This document shows positions 4,150 through 63,775 of a stretch of 64,000 bases of DNA, piece by piece (within the stretch, counting starts at the first letter, position 1; the number at the start of each line of letters is the position of its first letter). The position numbers and the translations under genes are program-made. The stretch is taken from assembly GCA_964597545.1 (NCBI GenBank), contig CAZQXN010000006.1, positions 13,695-77,694 of the forward strand. The letters are read 5' to 3'. This stretch comes from an uncultured Planctomycetia bacterium. Its GTDB lineage: Bacteria; Omnitrophota; Gorgyraeia; 1-14-0-20-64-10. The notes beneath the pieces are model-generated. The model was not told the origin of the DNA and ran no database searches. It worked only from the letters and a program-made list of their open reading frames with translations.

Positions 4150-4872
4150 ATGAGTGGTGTCAAGATCTCTGTCCTGATGGCTGCCCGAAATGCTGAGGCG
4201 ACTCTTGAAAAGGCTGCTCAGTCGGTTCTGGCCCAGCGGGGGGCCTCCTTTGAGCTCTTGATCGGGGACGATGCTTCCACAGACGGCACCTGGGATTGCA
4301 TTCGGCGCATCAGGCGGGATCTCCGGGTGCGGGCGTGGCGTTTTCGGAGGCACCAGGGGGTGAGTGTCACCCGCAACCGGCTGATTGCACGTGCTGCCGG
4401 GCGGTATCTTTCAATCTGCGATGCCGATGATCGCATGCTGCCGGACAACCTCAGGCGGCTTTCGGCTGTTCTGGACCGACGGCCTCAAGTGGGTGTGGCG
4501 TACGGTCGGATCCTCCTTGTGGATGAGCGCAGGAAGGGTCCGCCAAAAACATCCATTTTGTCCACCGGATTTCTGGGTGATTGGGATCTGCTGGGTTTTT
4601 CGATCCCCAACGGCGCAGCAATGCTTCGCAAGAAACTGGTGCAACGGGTGGGCGGCTACAATCCCAAGATCTCATTTGGAGGGGATGGTGACCTGTTACT
4701 GCGGTTGGGGGAGGTGACGCAATTCCGGGACCTGGGGGGTAAGCCGGTTTATCTGTACCGCCGACGCCACGGATCTGTCACGGATCAATCCCGCCAAGCC
4801 CGCAAGCAGGTCGCCCAGGAGACCCTCCGTAGGACGATCCTCAGGCGCTATGGAGTGCGGGTGACCTGGTAG
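4150..4872 (+). CDS. Family 2 glycosyltransferase (paralogue of 2242..2964)
   Basis: ISVLMAARNA...ELLIGDDASTDGT...ICDADDRMLP. About 45% identical to the first GT2 by eye. Confidence 0.75.
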   Translation: MSGVKISVLMAARNAEATLEKAAQSVLAQRGASFELLIGDDASTDGTWDCIRRIRRDLRVRAWRFRRHQGVSVTRNRLIARAAGRYLSICDADDRMLPDNLRRLSAVLDRRPQVGVAYGRILLVDERRKGPPKTSILSTGFLGDWDLLGFSIPNGAAMLRKKLVQRVGGYNPKISFGGDGDLLLRLGEVTQFRDLGGKPVYLYRRRHGSVTDQSRQARKQVAQETLRRTILRRYGVRVTW

Positions 4873-13404: not shown

Positions 13405-14250
13405 ATGAGCGAAACTGCACGCGTGATCGAGGTCTTCCCCTCCATTCAAGGGGAGGGGATCTACGCGGGCAAGCGCCACCTCTTTGTCCGTTTTGGGGAT
13501 TGCAACCTCAATTGCTGTTACTGCGACACCGATTTCAAGGGTCCATCTGTCGCGGTTGATGCTGAAAAGCTTTTGGAGATGGTGCACCGCCACCTGCAAA
13601 GCAACGGTCCGTTCCACGCGGTCAGCCTCACCGGAGGGGAGCCGCTCATCTGGTGGAGATTCCTGCAGGGGTGGCTTCCGAAACTTAAAGCCATTCATCC
13701 CACAACGTATTTGGAAACCAACGGCACCCTGCCGGATGCATTTCAGGGGGTGCTCGCCTGGATAGATATCATTGCCATGGATCTGAAGCTCCCTTCCTCT
13801 ACGGGGGAGAGGCCTTTTTGGACAGAGCATGAGTGTTTCCTGCGAGCAGCCCACTCGGCAAGCAGGTGCCAGGTAGCTCGTAACTCCATAGGAGACAATA
13901 GGTTGCAAGCTGAATCGGTACCTGGTACCGTTTTTGTGAAGCTTACCGTGACTGCCGATACCCGCGATGAGGATCTGAGGCGTGCGTGCGATCTGGTGGC
14001 TGCGGTGGATGCGCGCATCCCGGTGGTGCTGCAGCCGGTCACCCCACCACCCGTCTTTGACCCGAAGGGTCGTTTCTCGAAGAGAAACCCGCCTTTGGCG
14101 GGCAAGCCGGGTGGTGGGGTCACCCCTTGGAGGGCGGTGAGCGGGGTTCCAAGCGATGATCAGATCAGCCGATGGCAGCATCAAGCTGAGGAAAGAGTTG
14201 CTGGGGTGCAGGTGATTCCTCAGCTTCAACGAGCACTGGGGGTGCCATGA
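13405..14250 (+). CDS. queE: 7-carboxy-7-deazaguanine synthase QueE (radical SAM), carrying an in-frame about 26-aa insertion
   Basis: [42 protein letters not shown] (Cx3Cx2C-type QueE) ... ends [11 protein letters not shown] as QueE proteins do. Start taken at the internal Met. Confidence 0.8.
13860..13938. repeat. Intragenic copy of the GGTACC-W-GGTACC palindromic element inside queE
   Basis: GGTGCCAGGTAGC (13865-13877) ... AATCGGTACCTGGTACC (13917-13929) then GTTTTTGTG. Same unit as the post-giant-gene repeats. Confidence 0.5.
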
Positions 14251-22720: not shown

Positions 22721-25700
22721 ATGAAGAAAGTGAATGTCTCTTTTTTGAAACGAACCCAGCCTCTTTTTTTAACGATCCTCTTGGCCAGCTTTGTTCTGAC
22801 CCAGCCTGCTTTTGCCCTGCGCGCCAGTGGTGTAGATGCTAGGGGGCAAAAAACGGTACGCTCAGGCTTGGAAGAAACGCTTAAACGGGCCGGAGCGGCG
22901 GCCCGGGCCGGGAATCCGGATGCAGCGCTGGAAGCCGGCGCCTCTGCTGTTGGGCAATTGGCCAGCGCAGCCGGACTCCTTCCGGTAGCCCCGAAGCCCC
23001 CTGGTTTCGCCACCGGCCTGGAGGAAGACGCAGTGGCTGATTTGGACCAAGCCATCTCATATCTTCTGCGCGATCCCGAGGACCCGGACTTGGTGAATGT
23101 GAATGATTTGCTGGCCGAGAAAAATCCAACTGATCTGGCGAAAGGGTTCAGGCTGGCCGCGGCTATTCTTGGCAAAATGACGAGACTCCTCGATGAAGAA
23201 ACGATGGAAGTGCTGGAGGCTTTGATTGCCCGAGGCAAGGAGGAGACCGGCCCGGTATTGAGTGCTGCTTCTGTTGCGGGCGAGGCACTTGAGAGCTTGC
23301 CTGGCAGGGCCGAAGAAGCCAGCTTTGATGCACTCGCTGAGAGATATAAAGCCAGCGGTTTAGAGGAACGGCGGGGCATGACTCGCCGGGAAATGCTTAT
23401 TGGCCTGGCGGCAGCTGGAGCCGGGTTGGCGGTGGGTGTGCCCACGGGAATGTTTCTTCCGAGGTCAGACTCGCCATCGGCCGCTTCTTCGGCTGCACCG
23501 GACGCGGCACAGACAACCCCTGCCCTCACTTGGACCGGTGCGCACTACGAAAAGGGCAGATGGTCTTCTATCGCCTTAACCGGGTACCCTCAGGGTGCGG
23601 TTGCGAGTCTCTGGCGTGCGGAAACAGCACCGCAAGGTCAGCCTCGAAGTTGGGTATTGTTGGGCAGTTCTGATCCCGAGACACAACCCCGATTTGGAGA
23701 GAACGGAAGAGTGGAGCTGAGAGCGGTCCCAGAAGAAATCCCTCTGGAGCCGAACCAGACTCGGATCATAGTCGTCCACGATGTTCAAGCGTGGAACCGG
23801 TTGATGGAGGCATCTGGACCGGAGAACAGGTTAGACGAAACAAGGTTGAACCAGCTCTTGGGGGATCAGGAATTTGTTCAAACAACAGGGTTGAATGTGA
23901 CTGAAATTGCACCCCCAGACGTCAAGTATCTTTCCGCCTTCTCGGTGGAAGCCAAGGTAGACGAACTCCACTATGGACCTTTTGGGGTCGTCCTGCGGTT
24001 GGTCGAGATCCAAGGCGGCTCAGCGGTAGGCGTTTGGCGCAAGCAGAATCTTCCGCACGGACCGGAAGTGTGGAGTTACGACCCGTCGGAAGGATATGAG
24101 GTGGTGAAAGATGTTTGGGCTGGCCGGGGTTCGATACGGCTGGGTGCCAATTGGACAAAGCCCCCACTGCATGCTGGAGAATTTCGTATTGTCATTATGC
24201 CGAATCTCGCCACCTGGGACCACTGGGTGAGATCGGCAAACGAGATGGATGACTTTTCTAACAAGCTTTGGATGTCCACTGAAGAGATGGATCGGTTGGC
24301 TTCCGCTAAGCTTTTTGGGCCGACGACAGCGTTTTTCGTGGTTGAGGTGGGAGACCGGGTGCTTCAGGTTGTCTCGGCGCCACCCGCCGGCCTGGAGGAG
24401 CAGGGAGAAAGCCTGACCTGGAGGGCTTGGATGGCCACGGTGGGTGCTTGGGGGCCTACCAGGAGTTTCCTGAGTCGCGAGGTTATGCCGGCCGATCGAG
24501 CTGCCTTGCGTCGCCAAATCAACGGTCTGCTCAACCGCATGGTTCGGCAAGGGTACGTGGACAATATTCGTCCCATCCTTAAGCATGGGATTCCGGCAGC
24601 GGTCAAGAGCTTAATGCCGATGCAGTTCACTGGTGGGACAGGTTTTGGCGGCGAGCACTTTTACAGCAGGGAACTGGACTGGAACAAGCTGGATTTCGTC
24701 ATGGATTTCCTCTTTGAACTCGGGATTGAGTACCCGAATTGGAGCGAGCTGACGTCTGCGGAACTGGTACAACTTGTCGAGGAGGCCACTCACCTCTACG
24801 AACAGGCCATGGATTACCAAGTGGAAGTCGTCCTGCCGGCGGAAGGCGTTCGTTCTGATATTGAAGCTGCCGAGCGCGAAAGGATGCAGGCAAGAGCAGA
24901 AGCATTAAAGACAAGAGGGTCAGAGGTATTGGAGCACATGTTGTCGGCTGACGAAATTGATGAGGCGGCGACGATAGCCAATTATGAGGAAAAGGATCCC
25001 AATCTCGAAATAAAAAGGCTGCACCGCCACGAGGCTCCTCTTCGGGAAGATCTGGAGAGGCTAGAGGAGGAACTGCGCCAAATAAGCGAAGAGATGCAAC
25101 AGGGGTGGCGGATCCAGCATGTGCGGATTGTTCCCGCCGCCGGCCTGGAGGAAGTGGAAATAGTCTCCGAGCCGATAAGGCAATTCACAGGCCACGGCCA
25201 ATGGGTGTATGGCGTGGCCTTCTCCCCTGACAGCCGATATCTCGCTTCGGCAAGCGCGGACGAGACGGTTCGCCTTTGGGAGGTCAACAGCGGCAGCGAA
25301 GTCCGGCGATTCAAAGGCCATACCGACAGGGCGTGTCGCGTGGCCTTCTCCCCTGACAGCCGATACCTCGCCTCGGCAGGCGACGACAGGACGGTTCGCC
25401 TCTGGGATGTCGCCACCGGCAGCGAAGTCTGGCGATTCGAAAGCCAAGAACAAGGAATGCATATTCATAACATGGCCTTCTCCCCTGACAGCCGATACCT
25501 CACCTCGACAGGCAGCGGCAAGACGGTTCGCTTCTGGGATGTCGCCACCGGCAGCGAAATCCGGAAATTCGAGATCGGCTGGGTGTATACCATAGCCTTC
25601 TCCCCTGACAGCCGATACCTCGCCTCGGCAGGCGGCAAGACGATTCGCCTCTGGGATGTCGACGCCGGCAGTGAAGTCTGGCAATTCGAAGGCGACGACC

Positions 25701-28700
25701 TAATGATGGTGCGTGCCGTAGCCTTCTCCCCTGACAGCCGATACCTTGCCTCGGCAGGCGGCGACAGGACGGTTCGCCTCTGGGATGTCGCCACCGGCAG
25801 CGAAGTCCGGCAATTCAAAGGCCATACCAACTGGGTGTATACCGTGGCCTTCTCCCCTGACAGCCGATACCTTGCCTCGGCAGGGGAGGACAGGATGGTT
25901 CGCCTCTGGGATGTCGCCACCGGCAGCGAAATCCGGCGATTCGAAAGCCACGGCAAAGCGGTGCGTGACGTGGTCTTCTCCCCTGATAGCCGATACCTTA
26001 CCTCGACAGGTGATGGCAACACGATTCGCCTCTGGGAGAGCGGCCTCACCACTACCGGCCTGGAGGAAGGTAAGTCGCCTCGGCCCACCACAGCGCCCAG
26101 CTTCCTGGCGGCCACATTGGAGGCATCCATGGAGCTGGCAAGCGATGGGCCTGTGGCTGTAGCTGATTTGACTGCGGGAGTCAACCAAAGACAGGCTCGG
26201 CAGCTAAAAGAGTCGACTGTGGCAGACCACCTGCATCTGCTGTGGCTTGGCGGAGCCCTAGACAGAGGAGGAAGCACCAAGCGGGACGCAAGATATCAAT
26301 TGGCACGCCGTCCATCGTCAGCCCGCCTGCAAGCTGTTCAGCGCTATCTTAACGGGGCGGCAGGAAGTGCAGTGCGCTACAGCACGCCAAGCGAGCGCAA
26401 AGCGCTTGTTGCCCAACTGCGGAACATTGTCTATACGACGGACGTATCGCGGGCAGCCAAAGCGTACACAGCTGAAGGCGCTGGCGCTGTTCAGACTGCC
26501 GATGACCTGGAGCAGATTGCAGAGGCACTCGGCCTATCCCTTGTGATGCTCAAGCCCGACGCAATCAAGAGGCGACAGGATCGCGCCATCCTGGATTTGC
26601 TTTGGGATGCCAGCAGAGTGCAGATTGTATACATAGGCCAACAGGTTGCGTTGGACCAGGAGACCCAAATAGAGCCCTTTTATGAAGAGCACAGGGAGAA
26701 AGTCTTCTTTCAGGTCCTTCTCGACTACATCGGCGGCGGGGAGGTCGTTCCCATGCTGGTGAGGTCTACAGCCGCCGACGAATCTCCGATCGACCACATC
26801 GCCCGCATTATCGGGCCCACCAACGGCGGCTTTGACAGAGTGAACCCAGCGTCCAGCACCCCGCAAGGCATACGGGGCGCATTGATGAGCGCTCGGGACA
26901 TCAGCTCTGACCCCAGCAGATTCCCGACAACCAACAGAATTCATCGCTCATCCGGCACTTATGCAGATGTCGTCCAAGAAGCCGGTCTCGCCTTTGGCGG
27001 CACAGAGGCGCTGGCGCAGATCGTAGCTGCCCGTGTCTTAAAGATACAGCCCCCCGAACTCGCCTCCGGCCAGGAGGAGGGGGAGACGATGTTCGACCCT
27101 AGGTGGGCTGGGCTACTGGAGCAGTATCGCCTTGAGAGCGTTGAGGAGTTAAGGAGCAATTTGCTCCGGGCATTTACCGATCCGAGCTTTGCGTGGCTCA
27201 CCCCTAAGATGCTCTGGCAAGCGTGGCTCTATGATGAGGAGCGAGGCTTTGATGAAGCTGGCGAAGCGGTGCACATATGGTCTTATGAGGATATAGATGG
27301 TGCTCTCGAGGGATATGCACTTGGCCAGCGGGTTGAGGTGTATCCGGTCAGCACCAGCGAGGTGCGGATTGATATTTTATCCCCCTCCTCACATCCAGGT
27401 GCGCGACCAGTGGGCACCTCTAGCACTGCTACCGTGGGAGAGATAGGTCCCAAGCTGCATGCAGCATTCACCAACTCCCATCCGCGAAGTGATAGTCGGC
27501 TCACCCCAGGGTCGTTGCAGGGGATCGCATTTTACGATGACACACGCCCTATGCAGTATGGTACTCACTTTGTGGCGGATATAACCGACAGGACTAGCTT
27601 GAGAGATGTTCTTGAACAGTATCAGTCCGATCAGCCCGTTACACTCAGCGTGACGGGTAAGCATAAGCTGGCGCTTACAATCATATCCGCCTCCGGCCAG
27701 GAGGAGGGGAAGATAGAAAGGGAAATAGAGGAGGTGAGGGAAAGGCTTGCCGTTGTTAATCATCAACTTGCGCTGGCGAGATTTGTCAGGGCTGAGACGT
27801 TTATGGATCCAGAGCCTAGGTTGCCAGAAGAATCTGCAGAGTTGGACGAGCAATGGCACGTTTTGGTTGGCGACCTAAAACGTCTTCGGCAGGAGCAGCG
27901 AGCTCAGGAGATGGGACTCACCAGCCGGACCGGCCAGGAGGAGGGGGTTGCCAAACCTTTAAGCGAATTGCGGCCTTCACGCTACCTGAGGGACGATTGC
28001 CTTGTTGATTCGAATGCTGGAACAAAGGTGTTTCTGGTTTCCAAAAATCAGCGCGGGTCAGAAGACGTGAGTTTGATAAACATAGCTACACGGGACCCCC
28101 TGGCGTTGCCGGTCCTGATGCTGAAAAAATATCACGTCCTCCGCAGAAGGGCCTCCGGCCAGGAGGAGGCGGTGCGGCAAGCCGCACATGCGTACCTGGC
28201 TCAACCCGGGGTTTTGGAGCAGCTGGATGCTGCAGGTGGCAGCGTGCTGCTGAATTCAGCGGCTGCGCGGCGGTTGCATCCGGCAGCAATGGCGGCCACC
28301 TTGACGCGGGCAGGTGCACCTGCCGGCGTTGAAGAGCCCCCCGGCTTGGTCCTTTCAGACAGCAATCTCATCCCCCAGCGCAACCCTGCGTTACGGAATC
28401 TAGCTATGGTACCGCTGGGCTCCAGCTGGCAGGATGTCGAAAACGCCATCCAGCAGGCCAGCCCCTTTGACTTAATCTTGGTTGAAAAGGAAGCTGGACT
28501 ATCCCCGGAGGTGGTTGCCGCGGCTTTAAGCCAAGCCTTTGGGCAAGGGCCCTCGGCCCGAGCAGTGCTGGCAGATCCCCAGCAGATCGAACTCATTTCA
28601 GCCCAGGCCCTCTATGAGGTCTGGACCGACCAGAGCTTGCCCAAGGTGGTGGCCCTGGGGATCTTTCTCCAGATTCAGACTAAGGCCGGAGAGACCTTTA

Positions 28701-28720: not shown

Positions 28721-28814
28721 AATCGGTACCAGGTACCAAACCTAACACCGGTACCGGGTACACTTTTCAACAGCGTACCCGGTACCTAGGTTGATCCCCG
28801 ATCAAGTCGGGGAT
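28721..28814. repeat. GGTACC-W-GGTACC palindromic repeat cluster / hairpins downstream of giant gene A
   Basis: GGTACCAGGTACC (28725-37). GGTACCGGGTAC (28750-61) and GTACCCGGTACC (28775-86) form a perfect 12-bp stem. Then the ATCCCCGA-n5-TCGGGGAT hairpin (28794-28814). Confidence 0.7.
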
Positions 28815-37868: not shown

Positions 37869-38851
37869 GCAAACCTAAGGTTGCCCTCTATTGGTGTGCC
37901 AGCTGCGGCGGATGCGAGGAGTCTGTTGTCGACTTGGCTGAAGACATCCTGACAGTCACGGATGCCATCGACATCGTATTCTGGCCGGTGGCGATGGACT
38001 TCAAATATTCCGATGTCGAAGCCATGGCCGATGGCGAGCTCACCGCCACACTTGTCAACGGTGCCATCCGAACCGATGAGCAGGAGCGCATCGCCAAGCT
38101 CTTAAGACGCAAATCCCAGCTCATTATCGCCCACGGAAGCTGCGCCCATCTGGGGGGTGTCGTGGGGCTGGCCAACTTCTACAAGCGGGAAGATGTTCTT
38201 GGGCGCGCCTACACCGAGGTTCCAAGTGTCAACAACCCCAAGAAGACGCTGCCTCAGGTGCAAACCAAAGAGTCCGGCAATGAGCTGGAGCTGCCCGGTT
38301 TTCACGGCTCGGTCAAAGCCCTGGATCAAGTGATAGAGGTGGACTATTATCTGCCGGGCTGTCCCACGCCGCCTGCGCTCATCAAGACAGCGGTTATGGC
38401 GATCCTTGAGGGGAAGTTGCCTCCCAAGGGGACGGTCATAGCGGAGCAAAAGTCGCTGTGCGACACCTGCATTCTCAAGGAGAGCAAGCCCGATGAGATT
38501 GCGGTCAAGCGGTTCAAAAGGGTCTATGAGACTGAGTGGGACTCGACCAAGTGTTTTTTGGACCAGGGGATCATCTGCTTGGGGCCTGCAACGCGAGGGG
38601 GCTGCGACTCCAGGTGCATCAAGGCGAACATGCCCTGCCGGGGCTGCTTTGGACCCACCGAGGCGGTCACAGATCAGGGTGCCAAGTTCTTGTCGGCCTT
38701 GGCCTCTTGTATCAGTTCGGACAACGGCGAGGAGTTGAGCGCCATCGTCAATTCCATCCCTGACCCTGCGGGGCTCTTCTACCGCTACAGCTTAGCCTCA
38801 TCGACGCTGAAGGCCGGAGCAGGCAAAAAGAAAGTAGAGGTCAATGAGTAA
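37865..38851 (+). CDS. mvhG: [NiFe] hydrogenase small subunit (F420-non-reducing hydrogenase MvhG-like)
   Basis: KVALYWCASCGGCEES...HGSCAHLGG...PGCPTPP...CRGCFGP. Confidence 0.8.
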   Translation: MSKPKVALYWCASCGGCEESVVDLAEDILTVTDAIDIVFWPVAMDFKYSDVEAMADGELTATLVNGAIRTDEQERIAKLLRRKSQLIIAHGSCAHLGGVVGLANFYKREDVLGRAYTEVPSVNNPKKTLPQVQTKESGNELELPGFHGSVKALDQVIEVDYYLPGCPTPPALIKTAVMAILEGKLPPKGTVIAEQKSLCDTCILKESKPDEIAVKRFKRVYETEWDSTKCFLDQGIICLGPATRGGCDSRCIKANMPCRGCFGPTEAVTDQGAKFLSALASCISSDNGEELSAIVNSIPDPAGLFYRYSLASSTLKAGAGKKKVEVNE

Positions 38852-40307
38852 GCGCATCACGATCGATCCGATTACCCGCCTGGAAGGTCACGGCAAGATC
38901 GACATTCTGCTTAATTCCAAAGGGGATGTGGAGAGGGCTTATTTTCAGGTTCCGGAGTTCAGGGGTTTTGAGAAATTCTCAGAGGGTAGAGCCGCCGAAG
39001 AGATGCCGGCCTTGACTCAGAAGATATGCGGCGTATGTCCTACCGCGCACCACACAGCCTCCTCCAAGGCGCTGGACGATCTCTTCAAGGTGGAGCCCCC
39101 GCCGGCTGCCAAGAAGATCAGAGAGCTGGTCTATAACGCCTTCATGTTTGAGGACCACCTGCTTCATTTCTATGTCTTGGGCGGCCCCGACTTTGTGGTG
39201 GGCCCCGACGCCCCCAAGACTGAGCGCAATATCTTAGGGGTCATCGGCAAGGTGGGGGTGGATATCGGTAAACAGGTCATCGATATCCGCAAACGGGTGC
39301 GGGGCATCATGACCCTTATCAGTGGCAGCCCCCTCTATCCGGTCAACGGCCTTCCCGGCGGGGTCTCAAAATCCCTGACTGAGGAGGACCGCTCCGCGAT
39401 CAAGGAAGTCGTTGACGACACCGTAGATTTTGCCAAGTTCACCTTGAAGATCTTTGAGGACATTGTTCTTAAGAACAAAGAATACGTCAGCCTCGTCACC
39501 GGCGATATCTATAAACATAAGACCTACTACATGGGGCTGGTGGATGAGAAGAACCGCGTCAACTTTTATGACGGCAAGGTCCGGGTTGTAGACCCTGACG
39601 GTCGGGAGTACGTGAAGTTTGAAGGTAAGGATTACTTAAAGCACTTGGAAGAGCGCGTTGAACCCTGGAGCTACTTGAAGCTCCTCTATCTTAAGGGGGT
39701 GGGATGGAAGGGTTTTGCAGACGGCAAGGACAACGGCGTCTATCGTGTCGCCCCCTTGGCCCGCCTCAATGCCTCTGACGGCATGGCGACCCCCTCGGCC
39801 CAGGCAGAATATGAGCGCATGTATGACACCTTAGGGGGAAAGCCGGTTCACAATACCCTCGCCTATCACTGGGCCAGGCTTGTTGAGGTGATGTATGCCG
39901 CTGAAAGGATGGGTGAGCTGGTGAACGACCCTGAGCTGACTGACCCCAAGGTCAGAAATATCCCCACCCAGGCACCCAGTGAAGGGGTGGGGGTGTGTGA
40001 GGCCCCTCGGGGAACCCTCTTCCATCACTATCAGACCGATTCCAACGCCATCATCCAAAAGACCAACTTGCTGGTTGCTACACAGAACAATGCTGCGGCA
40101 ATGTGCCTCTCCATTGAGAAGGCCGCCAAGGGGCTCATCAAACGCGGCAAGGCGGATGACGGTCTTCTCAACATGGTTGAGATGGCCTTTAGGGCCTACG
40201 ATCCCTGCCTTGCCTGCGCCACACATGCCATTGACGGCGGCCCCGCCCTTGAGATTGTCCTTCACAGCGCAGACGGCAAAGCCCACCAATCCATCAAGAA
40301 TTTCTGA
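38844..40307 (+). CDS. mvhA: [NiFe] hydrogenase large subunit (MvhA-like)
   Basis: N-terminal RLEGHG...RICGVCPTAHH and C-terminal DPCLACATHAI nickel-binding motifs. Confidence 0.85.
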   Translation: MSKRITIDPITRLEGHGKIDILLNSKGDVERAYFQVPEFRGFEKFSEGRAAEEMPALTQKICGVCPTAHHTASSKALDDLFKVEPPPAAKKIRELVYNAFMFEDHLLHFYVLGGPDFVVGPDAPKTERNILGVIGKVGVDIGKQVIDIRKRVRGIMTLISGSPLYPVNGLPGGVSKSLTEEDRSAIKEVVDDTVDFAKFTLKIFEDIVLKNKEYVSLVTGDIYKHKTYYMGLVDEKNRVNFYDGKVRVVDPDGREYVKFEGKDYLKHLEERVEPWSYLKLLYLKGVGWKGFADGKDNGVYRVAPLARLNASDGMATPSAQAEYERMYDTLGGKPVHNTLAYHWARLVEVMYAAERMGELVNDPELTDPKVRNIPTQAPSEGVGVCEAPRGTLFHHYQTDSNAIIQKTNLLVATQNNAAAMCLSIEKAAKGLIKRGKADDGLLNMVEMAFRAYDPCLACATHAIDGGPALEIVLHSADGKAHQSIKNF

Positions 40308-40448: not shown

Positions 40449-43400
40449 ATGAAGCACAACATACGCACCCTTCAACCGATAGCCGCACTTCTTGCCTTCA
40501 CGCTGGCCTGTCCGAACTCTGTCTATGCTATGCGACAGGAAGGGCCAGACTCCAAGACGGTTCGATCCGGCCTGGAAGAGGCTCTAAAAGCCGGTCCTGG
40601 CGCCACCCTGGAATACATAGAATACGGCGCCACACGCCTGACGCAAGCCCTCACCCCACCCAGCCCAGCCCCTCTATTCTCCGGCCAGGAGGAGGAGATG
40701 ACGAGCCGAACGGGCATCCACGCCGCTAAGTTCTATTTGTTGCCATTATTAGCGGAAGAGGGTTCAGTTAACACGCTAACCTATCCGGGTGGCACACCCC
40801 TTAATCTTAGACAGCTCCACAGTGATGCTGACACAGCGCTCACTATAGCCTTGATACGTGTCTTTGATGGACTAAGACTTCGTCAGGAAACAGGGGCGGT
40901 CGTAATAAGCATCGATAGAAAGACGAAGGTTGCCCACATAACGCAACTTTCCGCCGGCCAGGAGGAGGTGGAGACTATTTCCGAGCCGCTCAGACAATTC
41001 GCGAGCAACGATGAGGTGCTTGATATAGCCCTCTCCCCCGACGGCCAATTTATCGCTTCTGCAGGCTTGGATGGGACAGTTTGCCTCTGGAATGTCGGCA
41101 GTGGCGAGCCGGCTTGGAAGTACACAGGCCATACCAGCAAGGTGAATGCTGTGGACTTTTCCCCTGACGGTCGATATCTCGCTTCCGCAGGCCCAGACAG
41201 AGTTATCCGCATCCTGGATGCCGAGAATGGACGGGGGGTGCACTGGCTTAGGGGGCATTTCGATGAGGTGCTTGACGTGGACTTCTCCCCAAACAGCCGA
41301 ACCCTTGCCTCAACGAGCATGTTTGGGACGATTTACCTTTGGAGTGTTGAAAGCGGAAAGAAGTTCCGGGAGATTGGGCACCACAACGGTGTAGCGGTGA
41401 ATACCATCGATTTCTCCCCTGACGGGCGACACATTGTCTCAGGTAACATCCATGGAGATGTTGATCTCTGGAGTGTTGCCAGCGGCAGGATAGCTGGACA
41501 ATTCGAAGGGCACCACCTTGATGTACCTGTCGTGCTCTTTTCCTCTGACGGTCGATATCTTGCCACCGGAAGTAGTGACGACAGGACGGTTCGCCTCTGG
41601 GATGCTGAAAGCAGGCAAGAGCTTTGGCAGTCCAAAGCGGGAGAGCTCTTTAACGTAGCATTTTCCCCTGATAACCAACGTCTTGTCTCGACAAGCACCA
41701 ACGGGATGGTTCATCTTTGGGATGTTGCCAGCGGCAAGGAGCTGCGACGGTTTAAGGCGGGTACTCATAACATCTGGATGTTTGATGCGGTCTTCTCCCC
41801 TGACGGCCGGCAGATTATTACAGGGGATTCGGACAGCATGATTCGTGTCTGGCCGAGCGGCATGCACAGTGCCGGCCAGGAGGAATGGGTTGATATTACA
41901 GTTCCCATGTTGCAGCGCTTACATGCCAATAATCTGGTGCGGGTGGATGACCGGACTTTTCGCTTGGCCAGTAAAACTATGGATGGAACCTGGCAAGGCG
42001 CTGATGAAGAGAGCGGAGGCCCTCTGCAGCCCTTAAGCAAGGTAGATCTCCTCTCAGGGCAGGTGCTGCTTGAGGCCGGCCAAGAGGAGGGCAAGGTGGT
42101 TATGCGTACTCTCCGGCGACTTCAGGCTGCCTACGCGAGTCTTGGCAGCGCCACGGACAGCGGATCCCCTCTGCCGGCAGACGCGCAGGAAGCAACAAGG
42201 GCGGCGTACGAGCAGGTCCTGCAAGATGTCTACCGCTTAGCCAGGCCTGGCGTTGACGCGGGAACAATCGATCAGGCGTGGAATGGGTACAAAAGAGTGG
42301 CTGAGACAGTTCGGTCAGACACATTTTCCGGAACGTCTACCGAAGGCCTTGCTCTGTTGACCGGAGAGTTGAAAAACGTTGCCGCATTGCTGCAAGAGTC
42401 CGAAGATACCGCCGGCCAGGAGGAGGGGCAGGGGGATGTGGTGCAGAGTAACCTCTCTGCTCATGAGGCAGGCGAGCTTCTTGCCAAGGCGCTCAGCCCA
42501 ACCCTGTTCCATTTGCTTCGGTTGGGGCGTCAATACCGGGATGTGCAAATGCCTGATAATCAGCCGCTGACGTATACAACCCCAGCTCTCTTTGCGTCCG
42601 CGGTTTTCACAACGCTAGAGAGGATCAAAGCCAACGGCAGATGGACGGTTACCTTCCCAGCCCAAGGCGAGATCGCTGTGGTGACTGCGCATGAGGAGGC
42701 TGTTGGCCAGGAGGAGACGGTCGCGCCCCCTGAGGACTGGGACCGGATAGGAACTATCCGTACCGACTCAGATATTACCAACCTTCTGGCTCAGCGCGGA
42801 TATGGCCTTCTTTCCCCGGACGGAGACCCCTATCAGTATGTATCACATGATAAGCAACAGGTAGACATCGCCCCTTCGCTTTCCGATTCTTCATTAGGAG
42901 ATTCTTTCGGAAAACCCCGAGCTGAGTTTGAAGGGTGGCACGTTTATTCTTCGCTTCTATCAGCGCGGAAAGCTGCACAAAGAATTCGCCACGCCCGCCG
43001 GGAACAATCCTCCGGCCAAGAGGAGGGAACTGTAGCTGAGGCCTTGGTTTCCGAGAGCCGAGATCAGCCTCTTCCTCCGGAGAAAGTCATCGAGGCGATC
43101 TTGGGAGAATTGAATGAGTCGAGAGAAGTTGGGATTCGCTTCATTTGGGATAGCAACTTTGACTTTGGGATTGTTGATGAAACCCAGCCTCTTCATGATT
43201 TTGTGCATCTCAAATTTCTTCCTCGGATAGGACCTTCAGACCCAGTCCCATACGATGAGATCCGTCGGGTTGTTCCGGTCGGTCGATACATTGCGCTTCT
43301 TTCGAAAGCTGCTCAATCTGAGTTGAAAGCTACAGTTGAAGTCGCTAGGTACTCCCCCACAACCGGGCAGCTTGTTCGATTCAGCGGAGATCTTGACCAT

Positions 43401-45326: not shown

Positions 45327-45343
45327 CCCCCGCTCAAAACCTA

Positions 45344-45423
45344 AAATCGGTACCAGGTACCAAAAGCGAAGATCGGTACCAGGTACCAAGAGCAAAAATC
45401 GGTACCTGGTACCGTTAGTTTTT
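45344..45423. repeat. Three tandem ATCGGTACC-W-GGTACCAA palindromic units (about 26-bp period) forming a perfect 13-bp hairpin plus T-run between convergent genes
   Basis: GGTACCAGGTACC at 45349-61 and 45375-87. GGTACCTGGTACC at 45401-13; the A and T versions are exact reverse complements. Then GTTAGTTTTT. Confidence 0.75.
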
Positions 45424-45933
45424 CCCTGCCTGGAATCCGATCTGTTTGCGAGCCGGCGGCTTATGGGTTTCTTCCATGAGTTTTCTGATGGCGTCAAATA
45501 CTACCTTGAATTGGGTGTCGTATTTTTTCTCCAAAGCGGCCAGACGGCGGGCCAGTTCTTTGTTGCTGGCCAGCATGGAACGGAGCTTCACAAACGTTCG
45601 CATGATGGCAATGTTGACCTGGACAGCTCGCTTGCTGCGGAGCACACTGGAGAGCATAGCTACTCCCTGCTCCGTGAAAGCATAGGGTTTTGCTCGTCGA
45701 ATGCCACCCCAGCTTGAAGTCACAAATTGTGACTTCAAGATTGAAAACTCCTTCTTGTTCAGTTGAAACATGAAATCCTTAGGGAATCGCTCCTTATTGC
45801 GCTTGACGGCCTGTATTAGGATTTTGGGTATCACACCGTACATATCAGCCAGGTCAGGGCTAAGCATTACTTTGTGGCCTCGCAGGAGGTAGATCTGTCT
45901 CTCGATTCGCTCTGATGGGATAAGCTGGCTCAT
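45415..45933 (-). CDS. ORF6N-domain protein (phage-associated DNA-binding family)
   Basis: [54 protein letters not shown]...[28 protein letters not shown] matches the ORF6N domain. A TATAAT -10 lies on the minus strand at 45987-45992. Confidence 0.7.
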
Positions 45934-46013: not shown

Positions 46014-46135
46014 CTAACATCGGTATCGGGTACCAAACCTTATACCAAGGGGTCAGACCCTTTCGTACAGCGTGTACGGGGCAGCCGCGTACGAAAAGGT
46101 CAGACCCTAGAAAGCGGTACCTGGTACCAAGGTTT
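46014..46135. repeat. Degenerate and intact copies of the GGTACC-W-GGTACC element plus GGTCAGACCCT direct repeats upstream of the ORF6N gene
   Basis: AAACCTAACATCGGTATCGGGTACC (46011-34) is near-identical to 28739-28762. GGTCAGACCCT at 46051 and 46098 flanks the CTTTCGTAC/GTACGAAAAG inverted repeat. GGTACCTGGTACC at 46116-28. Confidence 0.6.
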
Positions 46136-50192: not shown

Positions 50193-51171
50193 GAAGCCGA
50201 AGGTTGCCTTTTACTGGTGCGCCTCCTGCGGGGGATGCGAGGAGTCGATCGTAGATCTCGCCGAGGATCTGCTCAGAGTCACAGAGGCGGTTGATATTGT
50301 CTTTTGGCCGGTGGGGCTGGATTTTAAGCGTAAGGATGTGGAGGCGCTGCCGGACGGGGCGATCTTGGCCTGTCTCCTCAATGGCGCCATTCGGACCTCT
50401 GAGCAGGAGGAGATGGCCCGGTTGCTGCGCAGAAAGAGCCAGGTGATGGTTGCCTATGGCGCCTGCGCTCACATGGGGGGTATTCCGGGCCTTGCCAACC
50501 AGTTCAGCCGCGAGCAGCTCTTGAAGTACGTTTACGAAGAGGCCCCTTCGGTTGATAACCCCGACAAGACCCGTCCGATGCCTAAGTTTGAAGAAGCCGG
50601 CCGCACTGCAACCCTGCCTGTTTTCCGAAACATGGTGCGCTCATTGGACCAAGTGGTGGATGTGGAGTATTACCTGCCGGGTTGCCCGCCCACCCCAGGG
50701 CTTCTCAAGGAGGCAGTCTTTACACTGCTCTCCGGCAAGCTCCCTCCAAAGGGAACAGTCCTGGCCCCGGATATTGCCCTGTGTGATACCTGTCCTCGCA
50801 AGGAGTCCAAGCCCACAGATGTTAGCTTCACTGAGCTTAAGCGCCCGCACGTCTCTGAGATCGATCCGGAGGCTTGTTTGCTGGCCCAGGGGTTTGTCTG
50901 CATGGGTCCTGCCACTCGCGGTGGGTGTGAGGCCCTGTGCGTGAACGGCAACATGCCCTGCACCGGTTGTTTCGGCCCGACCTCCCGCGTGCGGGACCAG
51001 GGGGCCAAGATCCTCTCCTCCATCTCCGCCAATATCTCGGCGACCGAAGAAGAAGGGGCAGACAAGATTCTGTCGGGATTGCCGGATCCGGTGGGCACCT
51101 TTTACCGCTATGGGCTGGCCAAGTCTCTAATGAGGCGCAACCTGGCTGCCGGCCAGGAGAAGAAGGGATAA
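50185..51171 (+). CDS. mvhG: [NiFe] hydrogenase small subunit MvhG
   Basis: Start at MGEKPKVAFYWCASCGGCEES (internal Met). Collinear with 37865..38851. Confidence 0.8.
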   Translation: MGEKPKVAFYWCASCGGCEESIVDLAEDLLRVTEAVDIVFWPVGLDFKRKDVEALPDGAILACLLNGAIRTSEQEEMARLLRRKSQVMVAYGACAHMGGIPGLANQFSREQLLKYVYEEAPSVDNPDKTRPMPKFEEAGRTATLPVFRNMVRSLDQVVDVEYYLPGCPPTPGLLKEAVFTLLSGKLPPKGTVLAPDIALCDTCPRKESKPTDVSFTELKRPHVSEIDPEACLLAQGFVCMGPATRGGCEALCVNGNMPCTGCFGPTSRVRDQGAKILSSISANISATEEEGADKILSGLPDPVGTFYRYGLAKSLMRRNLAAGQEKKG

Positions 51172-51179
51172 CCTTAAAG

Positions 51180-52727
51180 ATGGACAAAGAAATCCAGAAG
51201 AACTGGGAGAGGGGCCGGGCCGGCGCAGATGAGAGTTATCTCAAGAAGCGGCGCGTAGTGATTGACCCGATCACCCGCCTGGAGGGGCACGGCAAGGTCG
51301 ACATTCATCTTAACGAGGAAGGGGATGTGGACCGGGCCTATTTCCAGATACCGGAGCTCAGAGGTTTTGAGGTCTTTAGTCTCGGCCGCCCGGCTGAGGA
51401 CATGCCGCAGATTACCAGCCGCATCTGCGGGGTCTGCCCCACCGCCCATCACATGGCTGCCACCAAGGCGCTGGATGATCTGTATCAGGTGGAGCCCACC
51501 CCGGCGGCCAAGAAGATCCGGGAACTTGTCTACAACACCTTCATGCTTGAGGATCACGCCCTCCATGTCTATATCCTGGGTGGGCCGGACTTCATTGTGG
51601 GACCCGATGCGCCGGCCGAGACCCGCAATGTCCTCGGCGTCATTGAGAAGGTGGGTGTGGAGGTGGGCAAGAGGGTCATCGCCACTCGGCGCCGCCTGCG
51701 GGAATTGATCACCCATTTGGGTGGCAAGGTGATCCACCCGGTTCTGGGGCTTCCAGGCGGAGTGGCCAAGGGGTTGACCCAAGAGGAGCTGCCGCACTTT
51801 CAGCAATTGGCCAAGGACGCGGTGGAATTTGCAGAGTTTACCCTGCAGGTTTTCCGGGACCTGGTCTTAAAGAACGACGCCTACGTCAAGCTCATCACCT
51901 CAGATCACTACACGCATAAGACTTACTACATGGGTTTGGTGGATGAGGCAAACAAGGTCAACTTCTATGACGGCAAGATTCGCGTGGTTGATCCGGAGGG
52001 GAAGGTCTTAACCGATTTTGCCCCGCAGCAGTACCTTGACCACGTCGCCGAGCATGTGGAGCCTTGGAGCTATGTCAAATTCTGCTACTTAAAATCCGTC
52101 GGCTGGCAGGGTTTTGCTGAAGGGCCGGAGAGCGGCATCTATGCGGTGGCCCCTCTGGCTCGGCTCAATGCCTCTGACGGTATGGCCACCCCTAAGGCCC
52201 AGAAGGCGTACGAGGAGTTTTATGCGATCTTGGGGGGCAAGCCGGTCCACCACACCCTGGCCAACCATTGGGCCCGGGTGGTGGAGATGGTCTATGCGGC
52301 CGAGCGGATCGAAGAGCTGCTCGACGACCCGGAGATTACCAGCACCGATCTTCGCGTCATCCCCACCAAGACCCCCAAGGTTGGCATGGGGGTGGTGGAG
52401 GCGCCCCGAGGCACCCTGTTCCATCACTTTGAAACCGATGAAAAGGGTTTGCTTACCAAGGTGAACCTCATTGTTGCCACCCAGAACAACGCAGGCCGCA
52501 TCGCCATGAGCGTGGAGAAGGCCGCCAAGGGCTTGATCCGCAAGGGTAAGGTTTCTGACGGCTTGCTGAACATGGTGGAGATGGCATTCCGCGCTTACGA
52601 CCCCTGTCACGCTTGCGCCACCCACTCGCTTCCCGGCCAGATGCCCCTGATTTTGCAGGTGCGTGATGCGTCGGGCCGCGTTGTTGAGGAGGTCAGCCGA
52701 TGCGTGACCCCAAACCCCGCACCTTAA
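51180..52727 (+). CDS. mvhA: [NiFe] hydrogenase large subunit MvhA
   Basis: Start at MDKEIQ... (internal Met). RLEGHG...RICGVCPTAHH ... DPCHACATHS. Confidence 0.85.
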   Translation: MDKEIQKNWERGRAGADESYLKKRRVVIDPITRLEGHGKVDIHLNEEGDVDRAYFQIPELRGFEVFSLGRPAEDMPQITSRICGVCPTAHHMAATKALDDLYQVEPTPAAKKIRELVYNTFMLEDHALHVYILGGPDFIVGPDAPAETRNVLGVIEKVGVEVGKRVIATRRRLRELITHLGGKVIHPVLGLPGGVAKGLTQEELPHFQQLAKDAVEFAEFTLQVFRDLVLKNDAYVKLITSDHYTHKTYYMGLVDEANKVNFYDGKIRVVDPEGKVLTDFAPQQYLDHVAEHVEPWSYVKFCYLKSVGWQGFAEGPESGIYAVAPLARLNASDGMATPKAQKAYEEFYAILGGKPVHHTLANHWARVVEMVYAAERIEELLDDPEITSTDLRVIPTKTPKVGMGVVEAPRGTLFHHFETDEKGLLTKVNLIVATQNNAGRIAMSVEKAAKGLIRKGKVSDGLLNMVEMAFRAYDPCHACATHSLPGQMPLILQVRDASGRVVEEVSRCVTPNPAP

Positions 52728-63715: not shown

Positions 63716-63775
63716 GATCGGTACTCCAATCGGTACCAGGTACCAAAATCAGAAATCGGTACCTGGTACCAAGCG
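63716..63775. repeat. GGTACC-W-GGTACC palindromic hairpin repeats downstream of giant gene C
   Basis: GATCGGTACTCC partial. AATCGGTACCAGGTACCAA (63732-44) and AATCGGTACCTGGTACCAA (63758-70) are exact reverse complements giving a 13-bp stem. Confidence 0.7.

What the first reader, a model, noticed from the sequence alone, without database searches (positions are those of the whole stretch)
13860..13938. In-frame insertion of the palindromic element inside the radical-SAM gene queE
Between the conserved QueE segments ...ECFLRAA and VFVKLTV... there are about 26 extra residues ([26 protein letters not shown]). Their DNA is a copy of the same element: GGTGCCAGGTAGC ... AATCGGTACCTGGTACC-GTTTTTGTG.

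The insertion preserves the reading frame and has no stop, as seen for in-frame MITE insertions that genes tolerate. This is direct evidence that the element is, or was, mobile. If the hairpin forms in the mRNA it may attenuate queE.
Basis: partly seen in the sequence, partly recalled or inferred. Interest (0 to 1): 0.6.

Follow-up and report, generated by a model that had tools for sequence, protein, structure and literature searches.

The report
In-frame palindromic repeat insertion in queE
A short palindromic selfish repeat that normally sits between genes has landed, in frame, inside a flexible surface loop of the queuosine-pathway enzyme QueE; this kind of event is already known in other bacteria, and this is a new family of it.

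Summary
queE (13405-14250) carries a block (13854-13929) that its relatives lack. The block ends in a perfect repeat unit, AATCGGTACCTGGTACCGTT, identical over 20/20 nt to the intergenic copy at 45397-45416. A degenerate unit in inverse orientation lies 52 nt upstream. The frame is open.

Two corrections. The net gain is about 20 residues, not 26. The 35 nt between the two units are not recognisable as the element.

Most of 120 homologues have a 10-residue loop here. Other QueE lineages carry other palindromes at the same loop: three perfect GGTACCWGGTACC units in one, and a different repeat in the closest relative. Near relatives with an empty site exist for one of these lineages.

In metagenomes the same inverted doublet lies in frame in at least ten housekeeping genes. 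It abuts REP-associated tyrosine transposase genes in four distinct contigs. An identical 48-nt copy sits at a strain-specific site in atpG, with no target duplication.

The element is therefore REP/REPIN-like, not a classical MITE. It inserted into a disordered loop and has partly decayed. The proposed mRNA hairpin is no more stable than shuffled sequence (z -0.6). Intragenic REPs and Rickettsia RPEs are published precedents, so this is a new member of a known kind. A second hairpin insert lies at 14037-14124.

The parts
13405..14250 (+). queE-like radical-SAM gene (281 aa), host of the insertion
   Evidence: ORF. Best NCBIfam hits are QueE families, though below their cut-offs. The profile hits B. 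subtilis QueE 5tgs at 1.4e-20. The AF2 model's top Foldseek hit is QueE 5th5. It follows a QueC-like ORF, as in relatives L006 and L251. CX3CX2C (C33, C37, C40) and GGEP are conserved.
13854..13929 (+). Block unrelated to the nearest relative's sequence; this is the insert region. It encodes roughly [25 protein letters not shown].
   Evidence: In the DNA alignment with L002 the flanks align well and the middle is unrelated: 76 nt here against 52 nt there. Loop length statistics. pLDDT is about 60 for residues 161-170, between helix 139-160 and strand 175-182.
13865..13877 (+). Degenerate 5' unit GGTGCCAGGTAGC ('A' orientation, 2 mismatches), read as RCQVA (a decayed RYQVP)
   Evidence: It lies 52 nt (2 x 26) upstream of the perfect unit, matching the A-A-T layout of the array at 45349-45413.
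13913..13932 (+). Perfect 3' unit AATC-GGTACCTGGTACC-GTT ('T' orientation), read as VPGT and abutting the native VFVK
   Evidence: 20/20 nt identical to 45397-45416.
14037..14124 (+). Second, unrelated in-frame hairpin insert (+27 aa between QP and VTPW). Arms are GGTCACCCCACCACCCG / CGGGTGGTGGGGTCACC, with three small internal hairpins.
   Evidence: inverted repeat. RNA fold -63.5 kcal/mol, z = -4.84. Absent from 102 of 120 homologues; present with the same termini in L005, L006 (two tandem copies) and L007. pLDDT 45-61.
28721..28786 (.). Intergenic array of the same family (one good unit and two degenerate units), starting right after a TAA stop
45342..45416 (.). Intergenic array of three perfect units (A, A, T) with a 26-nt period, between convergent genes
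   Evidence: RNA fold z = -5.39.
46015..46131 (.). Composite intergenic array: GGTACC-type units flanking an inverted pair of a second palindrome family (GGGTCWGACCC-TTTCGTAC)
   Evidence: Positions 46047-46069 are 23/23 nt identical to the insert in the closest QueE relative.
63725..63773 (.). Intergenic inverted doublet (A, T) with 26-nt spacing, right after a TAA stop

Best explanation
The block at 13854-13929 is an old, partly decayed, in-frame insertion of a REP/REPIN-type palindromic repeat. The repeat unit is about 20 nt, aAAtC-GGTACCWGGTACC-Gaw. Units are usually arranged as an inverted 'A then T' doublet, or as short arrays with a 25-26 nt period.

Shown here. The family is dispersed, mostly just downstream of stop codons. 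Its 13-bp core has no stop codon in any of the six frames; it reads as VPGT, GT(W/R)Y or Y(Q/L)VP. The QueE copy sits between a helix and a strand, in a loop that ranges from 8 to 45 residues among homologues and is predicted to be disordered. The catalytic motifs are intact. The 5' unit and the spacer have decayed, and the hairpin is no longer exceptional.

Inferred. Copies are made by a REP-associated tyrosine (HUH/Y1) transposase acting on hairpins in single-stranded DNA, without target-site duplication. I found such genes abutted by these units in other contigs but could not look for one in this genome. Insertions are then filtered by selection, so only intergenic copies, or 3n-length copies in tolerant loops, survive. 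The insert is most likely a neutral passenger in QueE rather than a regulator.
For: Enrichment and arrays. 20/20 nt identity of the QueE unit to an intergenic unit. Derived state: 71 of 120 homologues have a 10-residue loop, and the nearest neighbours of the window's QueE (62-63% identity) have short loops. In the P0021/P0041 lineage, L001 has three perfect units and L004 has two, while relatives at 83-84% identity have an empty site. The junction and reading frame differ between the window (VPGT abutting VFVK) and L001/L004 (GTWY, 14 nt before VFVK), so these look like separate events. Ten of ten tested intragenic doublets lie in real genes with Pfam domains on both sides or spanning the insert: TopA, RlmN, ArgS, IleS, MutS, GatB, DUF255, NuoG-like, NuoF-like, NadE. 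Recent copying: an identical 48-nt doublet occurs at two sites in the atpG of L220, one of them absent from the near-identical L155, with no TSD. Doublet orientation is biased: AT 59, TA 17, AA/TT 16 of 95. Y1_Tnp genes occur in 5 of 120 array loci (4 distinct). Each has units 10-50 nt upstream of its start codon, and in L142/L214 also just after the stop. None occurs in the 120 control loci. The L232 ORF passes NCBIfam's cut-off for 'REP-associated tyrosine transposase' (90.2 against 80). Structure: pLDDT is about 60 at the insert while the core is above 90. Published precedent for intragenic REP dimers encoding 20-30 aa: PMC3733652.
Against: No RAYT gene is in the 64-kb window, and the rest of the genome was not available, so the transposase link is by family association only. 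The family lacks the GTAG/CGTC tag of classical REPs. The middle 35 nt of the insert cannot be assigned to the element, so the original form (three-unit array, or doublet with a long loop) is uncertain. No empty-site relative closer than 63% identity exists for the window's own lineage, and the insertion boundaries cannot be fixed to the nucleotide. QueE activity with the insert is untested.
Confidence: 0.8

Rival explanations
1. The repeat sequence entered QueE not by transposition but by recombination, gene conversion or template switching with an intergenic array. Alternatively, palindromes arise in situ in this permissive loop.
For: The loop hosts unrelated palindromes in different lineages. 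One is a perfect 24-nt palindrome in L251 that is not repeated elsewhere in 20.7 kb. In both QueE and atpG, close relatives carry different palindromes at the same site, as if elements replace one another. No TSD was found.
Against: An identical 48-nt doublet with sharp ends occurs at unrelated sites. The association with RAYT genes and the biased doublet orientation point to a defined mobile unit. Absence of a TSD is what Y1 transposases are expected to produce (established knowledge of IS200/IS605).
Confidence: 0.12
2. The insert is functional: either its mRNA hairpin attenuates or regulates queE, or the extra peptide has been recruited for a new function.
For: The pairing of the 5' and 3' units appears in the MFE and centroid folds. 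The insert has been kept open and in frame.
Against: The region folds no better than shuffled sequence (z = -0.59; 51 of 200 shuffles fold at least as well), unlike the intact intergenic array (z = -5.39). The peptide is not conserved in any relative. It is predicted to be disordered. The units have decayed.
Confidence: 0.05
3. It is an ancestral, naturally variable loop whose resemblance to the repeat is coincidental.
For: The loop varies in length in many homologues that show no trace of the GGTACC motif at the protein level.
Against: A 20/20 nt match to an intergenic unit including its flanks. A second unit in the correct inverse orientation, 2 x 26 nt away. About 0.7 chance matches are expected in the whole 64 kb. 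The closest relative does not share the loop.
Confidence: 0.03

Closest known systems
Intragenic REPs (GTAG-/CGTC-tagged repetitive extragenic palindromes found inside ORFs; Di Nocera, De Gregorio and Rocco 2013, PMC3733652)
   Same: Short palindromic units, mostly downstream of ORFs and often in inverted dimers. Tyrosine-transposase (RAYT/TIRYT) genes are flanked by the repeats. A minority lie entirely within ORFs as dimers encoding 20-30 amino acids, often in DNA-repair and tRNA-synthetase genes. Here the hosts include MutS, TopA, ArgS, IleS and QueE.
   Different: This family has no GTAG or CGTC tag. Its core, GGTACCWGGTACC, is a near-perfect 13-bp palindrome whose only asymmetry is the central base. 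It occurs in contigs of 43-73% GC. The exact motif was not found in the searchable literature.
Rickettsia palindromic elements (RPEs)
   Same: Palindromic repeats inserted in frame into unrelated metabolic and housekeeping genes, compatible with the fold and function of the host protein (PMC10969869).
   Different: RPEs are about 100-150 bp, are confined to Rickettsia, encode a conserved peptide, and have no identified transposase. Here the unit is about 20 nt (doublet 48 nt) and RAYT genes are adjacent in four distinct contigs.
REPIN-RAYT systems (own knowledge: Bertels and Rainey 2011; Ton-Hoang et al. 2012; a related paper was listed)
   Same: The replicating unit is an inverted REP doublet that forms a long hairpin, with a RAYT gene flanked by its cognate repeats.
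   Different: Classical REPINs are essentially extragenic and carry GTAG. This family is often intragenic: at least 10 verified cases among 95 non-redundant arrays, and up to 39% of the 113 arrays screened are candidates.
Bacterial MITEs
   Same: Small, non-autonomous, hairpin-forming, and occasionally fused in frame to ORFs.
   Different: MITEs have 15-30 bp TIRs derived from an IS and make target-site duplications. Neither was found here.

Membership tests
REP/REPIN-RAYT repeats | Short (20-40 nt) palindromic unit in many dispersed copies, mostly extragenic and close to the 3' ends of ORFs | tested here: met
   23 matches against 0.7 expected. Four intergenic arrays, three of them within 25 nt after a stop codon.
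REP/REPIN-RAYT repeats | Units paired in inverted orientation (REPIN-like doublet able to form a long hairpin) | tested here: met
   AT 59, TA 17, AA/TT 16 of 95 non-redundant arrays. Window pairs 45375/45401 and 63732/63758 are 100% complementary. The QueE insert has the order A...T.
REP/REPIN-RAYT repeats | Conserved GTAG (or CGTC) tetranucleotide at one end of the unit | tested here: not met
   The consensus of 193 units is aAAtC-GGTACCAGGTACC-Gaw, with no GTAG or CGTC. It is closer to the self-complementary 'TIR' repeats of TIRYT genes described in PMC3733652.
REP/REPIN-RAYT repeats | A Y1/HUH tyrosine transposase gene flanked by the repeats (REPtron), tested in other contigs | tested here: met
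   PF01797 ORFs in L232, L142/L214, L130 and L157, each with units 10-50 nt upstream of the start codon, and in L142/L214 also after the stop. L232 passes NF047646. No such ORF in 120 control loci.
REP/REPIN-RAYT repeats | The cognate RAYT is present in this genome | not testable with these tools
   None in the 64-kb window. The source contig could not be fetched.
REP/REPIN-RAYT repeats | Insertion without target-site duplication | tested here: inconclusive
   No direct repeat flanks the two identical 48-nt copies in L220 or the QueE inserts. However, no exact empty site is available for the window's own insert.
MITE | Terminal inverted repeats matching an IS, plus target-site duplication | tested here: not met
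   The whole unit is a palindrome rather than TIRs around a core. No TSD found.
Rickettsia palindromic elements | In-frame insertion in conserved protein genes at positions compatible with the fold | tested here: met
   The QueE loop has low pLDDT between helix 139-160 and strand 175-182. Ten other genes carry such inserts.
Rickettsia palindromic elements | Element of about 100-150 bp belonging to the RPE sequence families of Rickettsia | tested here: not met
   The unit is about 20 nt and the doublet 48 nt. The host is not Rickettsia: the named QueE homologues are labelled Candidatus Omnitrophica.
QueE (7-carboxy-7-deazaguanine synthase) | Radical-SAM CX3CX2C cluster motif and QueE fold | tested here: met
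   C33, C37 and C40 are invariant. 5tgs hit at 1.4e-20. 5th5 is the top Foldseek hit.
QueE (7-carboxy-7-deazaguanine synthase) | Score above the curated equivalog cut-off | tested here: not met
   Best is TIGR03963 at 69.3 bits against a cut-off of 260.1. The assignment therefore rests on best hits, fold and the neighbouring queC.

The most novel reading that the evidence does not exclude
GGTACCWGGTACC is the core of a RAYT-associated REP family. The family is shared by distantly related, mostly uncultivated bacteria (contigs of 43-73% GC). Its core is stop-free in all six frames, and it colonises coding regions of essential genes unusually often. The same protein loops (QueE site 1, QueE site 2, one atpG loop) are hit repeatedly by different palindrome families, which suggests that an existing palindrome attracts or is replaced by the next one. 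If so, these elements would be a recurrent source of loop-length variation in core enzymes.
Probability: 0.45. Interest if true: 0.55.

Novelty: new member of a known kind. Interest (0 to 1): 0.45.

Why it matters
This is a clean, well-delimited case of a selfish palindromic repeat becoming part of an enzyme. It extends a phenomenon known from Rickettsia RPEs and a few REP families to a new repeat family in poorly studied lineages. The family also offers experimental handles: a very simple 13-bp core, candidate cognate transposases, and strain-level presence/absence. These could be used to test how REP doublets are copied and why some protein loops are hit repeatedly. For annotation, peptides such as VPGT, GTWY and RYQVP inside conserved proteins flag repeat-derived inserts rather than true domain features. 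For QueE itself the insert is probably inconsequential.

Tried and rejected
1. ORF6N gene (45427-45933, minus strand) as the mobilising gene. It is flanked by arrays in the window and is a clear ORF6N domain. But only 2 of 120 array loci hold a homologue, and those are kilobases from the array. Rejected.

2. Scan of genome contigs with the 15-mer TCGGTACCWGGTACC. Only Halobacillus showed inverted pairs.

3. A recognisable middle unit in the QueE insert. Positions 13891-13903 and 13901-13913 match the core at only 4-6 of 13 positions, and the spacer has no other copy. Not supported.

4. Target-site duplication. None at the window insert, none in L004 against the empty sites L249/L250, none at the L220 copies.

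5. A common composite ancestor for the window insert and the P0002 insert. The interiors do not align. Not supported.

6. Fetching the source contig through P0001 failed, and cluster look-up gave no names.

7. Literature search for the exact 13-mers found nothing. Omnitrophota plus palindromic repeats returned nothing relevant.

It served only to find L232; all conclusions rest on the later Pfam and NCBIfam scans.

Full report
**1. What is in the sequence**

The open frame 13405-14250 (+) encodes a 281-aa radical-SAM protein.
- Its best family hits are QueE models, although all fall below their curated cut-offs.
- A profile built from its homologues hits B. subtilis QueE (5tgs) at 1.4e-20.
- An AlphaFold model (mean pLDDT 87) has QueE 5th5 as its top Foldseek match.
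- The gene follows a QueC-like ORF and precedes RNase PH and a Ham1-like gene. Relatives show the same order.

The quoted motifs are at the stated places. GGTGCCAGGTAGC lies at 13865-13877. AATCGGTACCTGGTACCGTT lies at 13913-13932 and runs directly into GTT TTT GTG AAG (VFVK).

**2. The motif is not chance**

GGTACCWGGTACC with up to 2 mismatches has 23 matches in the window against 0.70 expected, and no shuffle reaches 23. The other copies form arrays with a 26-nt period at 28725-28786, 45349-45413, 46022-46128 and 63732-63770. All are intergenic, and three start within about 25 nt of a stop codon.

The QueE unit is identical over 20/20 nt, flanks included, to the unit at 45397-45416. The degenerate unit lies 52 nt (2 x 26) upstream in the opposite ('A') orientation. 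That reproduces the A-A-T layout of the 45349-45413 array.

The 35 nt between the two units have no copy anywhere in the 1.86 Mb I held. No middle unit is recognisable.

**3. How much is extra**

Homologues are mostly 234 aa. The alignments show two separate length differences.
- **Site 1, the finding.** The window has 29 residues between FLR and FVK where 71 of 120 homologues have 9 (a 10-residue loop by my anchors). The net gain is 20 residues, not 26, because AAHSA aligns with the native loop.
- **Site 2.** This adds 27 residues between QP and VTPW.

Against the nearest relative (P0002, 79% identity; loci L002/L003) the flanking DNA aligns well and the middle is unrelated. The window has 76 nt (13854-13929) where L002 has 52 nt.

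**4. The insert is derived, and the loop has been hit repeatedly**

Site 1 ranges from 8 to 45 residues among 120 homologues. At the DNA level:
- L001 (P0041) holds three perfect units (A, A, T; 25-nt period).
- L004 (P0021) holds two perfect units. Its nearest relatives, P0083 and P0088 (83-84% identity), have the short loop RIAWEAGKDL, an empty site. The DNA alignment shows +69 nt in L004.
- In the window the T unit reads VPGT and abuts VFVK. In L001/L004 it reads GTWY and lies 14 nt before VFVK. The window's nearest full-length neighbours (62-63% identity) have short loops. The window and the P0021/P0041 lineage therefore look like separate events.
- The closest relative, P0002, carries a different palindrome at this site: TGTACGAAAGGGTCTGACCCCTTCGTACA. 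It is 23/23 nt identical to part of the composite intergenic array at window 46047-46069.
- L251 (P0055) has a perfect 24-nt palindrome there, and L252 has a remnant of it.

**5. What the element is**

- Core-to-core spacing peaks at 25 nt (range 24-27), with a second class at 17-19.
- Among 95 non-redundant arrays the orientation is strongly biased: A-then-T 59, T-then-A 17, same orientation 16.
- Conservation extends about 5 nt to the left and 3 nt to the right of the core (aAAtC...Gaw), with no GTAG or CGTC tag.
- 44 of the 113 arrays screened lie in long open frames. All ten that I tested are real genes with Pfam domains on both sides of the insert or spanning it: TopA, RlmN, ArgS, IleS, MutS, GatB, a DUF255 protein, NuoG-like, NuoF-like and NadE.
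- The core has no stop codon in any of the six frames. This is read directly from the sequence. The peptides are VPGT, GT(W/R)Y and Y(Q/L)VP.

Two near-identical atpA-atpG-atpD contigs, L155 and L220, share one doublet in atpG. They differ at a second site, where L220 has the same doublet and L155 has a different hairpin. The two L220 copies are identical over exactly 48 nt, AAATCGGTACCAGGTACCGATCTTCAAAGTTCGGTACCTGGTACCGAT. Their flanks are unrelated and there is no target duplication. This is the best direct evidence for a defined mobile unit whose length is a multiple of three.

**6. The transposase link**

A local search found IS200-like Y1 transposase ORFs in 5 of the 120 array loci (4 distinct contigs). 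It found none in the 120 control loci of similar total length, and none in the window.
- All are above Pfam's cut-off for PF01797.
- All have 'REP-associated tyrosine transposase' (NF047646) as their best NCBIfam family. L232 passes that model's cut-off, 90.2 bits against 80.
- In every case GGTACCWGGTACC units lie 10-50 nt upstream of the MPR(A/P)PR... start codon. In L142/L214 a unit also follows the stop codon.
- These contigs range from 43% to 73% GC.

Repeats flanking the transposase gene are the hallmark of REP-RAYT systems. The element is therefore REP/REPIN-like. It is not a MITE with TIRs and a TSD. Whether this genome carries such a gene could not be tested.

**7. Effect on QueE**

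In the model, helix 139-160 runs into the insert. Residues 161-170 have pLDDT of about 60, and strand 175-182 follows. The rest of the core is above 90. The cluster cysteines, the GGEP motif and all invariant columns of the family are present. The insert is thus a loop expansion on an intact fold.

The 5' and 3' units pair in the predicted mRNA fold, but the region is no more stable than shuffled sequence (z = -0.59). The intact intergenic array scores z = -5.39. I found nothing to support attenuation by this element.

**8. Comparison with what is known**

In-frame palindromic inserts are established for Rickettsia RPEs. For REPs, Di Nocera et al. 2013 report REPs entirely within ORFs, more than half of them as dimers encoding 20-30 aa, in repair genes and tRNA-synthetase genes. 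They also report tyrosine-transposase genes flanked by REPs or by other self-complementary repeats.

This case fits that picture and adds a new repeat family. The exact motif does not occur in the searchable literature. It fails the GTAG/CGTC criterion of classical REPs and the size and host criteria of RPEs. I file it as working like an intragenic REP doublet, as a new member of a known kind.

**9. Verdict**

Interest is moderate. The single event is ordinary for this class. Two features are worth a systematic study: the same loops are colonised repeatedly by different palindromes, and one 13-bp core is spread across very different genomes.

Noticed in passing
window 14037-14124 (inside queE): A second, unrelated in-frame insert of 27 aa between QP and VTPW. 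It has a 13-bp outer stem (CCCCACCACCCG / CGGGTGGTGGGG) flanked by a direct GGTCAC, and three small internal hairpins. RNA fold is -63.5 kcal/mol, z = -4.84, far stronger than the hairpin in the finding. The same termini with different interiors occur at the same QueE site in L005, L007 and L006 (two tandem copies). L006 has a third copy at 4292-4389, overlapping the smpB start. It looks like a TIR-plus-5-bp-TSD MITE-like family. The termini occur nowhere else in the window.
   Followed up: partly
window 46040-46110; L002/L003 376-398: A second palindrome family (GGGTCWGACCC with TTTCGTAC flanks) forms an inverted pair between two GGTACC-type units. 23/23 nt recur as the QueE site-1 insert of the closest relative. 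It also forms 25-nt-period arrays in L197 and L159.
   Followed up: partly
window 45427-45933 (minus strand) and 45713-45739: An ORF6N-domain gene (Pfam 5.8e-32) is bracketed by repeat arrays on both sides. It contains a perfect 13+13 nt palindrome (CTTGAAGTCACAA-T-TTGTGACTTCAAG) in its coding sequence. It is not generally linked to the arrays: 2 of 120 loci have a homologue, and neither is adjacent.
   Followed up: partly
L155 2674-3642 versus L220 492-1421: Near-identical atpG genes differ at one loop. L220 has the 48-nt GGTACC doublet; L155 has a different hairpin element (GTCATTTCGA...TCGAAATGAC). Both share a second doublet further on. This is a strain-level polymorphism of intragenic repeats in an essential gene.
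   Followed up: yes
L251 10463-10486 (QueE of P0055); L252: The extended QueE loop of another lineage is a perfect 24-nt palindrome, GGGGACGGTTCCGGAACCGTCCCC. It is not repeated elsewhere in 20.7 kb. L252 has a half-remnant (GGGGACGGTCCG). Either it is another repeat family or a palindrome generated in situ.
   Followed up: partly
window 24387-63342, 16 sites (e.g. 27066, 40681, 44584, 62268): The motif CCGGCCAGGAGGAG (consensus CCGGYYWRGAGGAG) occurs 16 times, always on the + strand. At several sites an ATG follows 5-8 nt later (40681 and 44584 start paralogous MT(S/T)RTG... ORFs). It looks like an extended Shine-Dalgarno-like leader shared by a set of co-oriented genes.
   Followed up: no
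window 25204-26076 and 41015-41810: Two runs of 126-nt (42-aa) tandem repeats with FSPD...LAS / TVRLWD signatures. By eye these are WD40-type repeat proteins; they were not scanned against Pfam.
   Followed up: no
window 38552-40238 versus 50875-52637: Several collinear direct repeats 71-79% identical at a constant offset of 12,399 nt (families D9-D19). This is a diverged duplicated gene segment.
   Followed up: no
L025, L036, L070 (Halobacillus genomes): Inverted pairs GGGTACCAGGTACCGAAA...TTTCGGTACCTGGTACCC with 15-40 nt loops occur in Halobacillus chromosomes. The same 13-bp core is therefore used by a hairpin repeat in a Firmicute.
   Followed up: no
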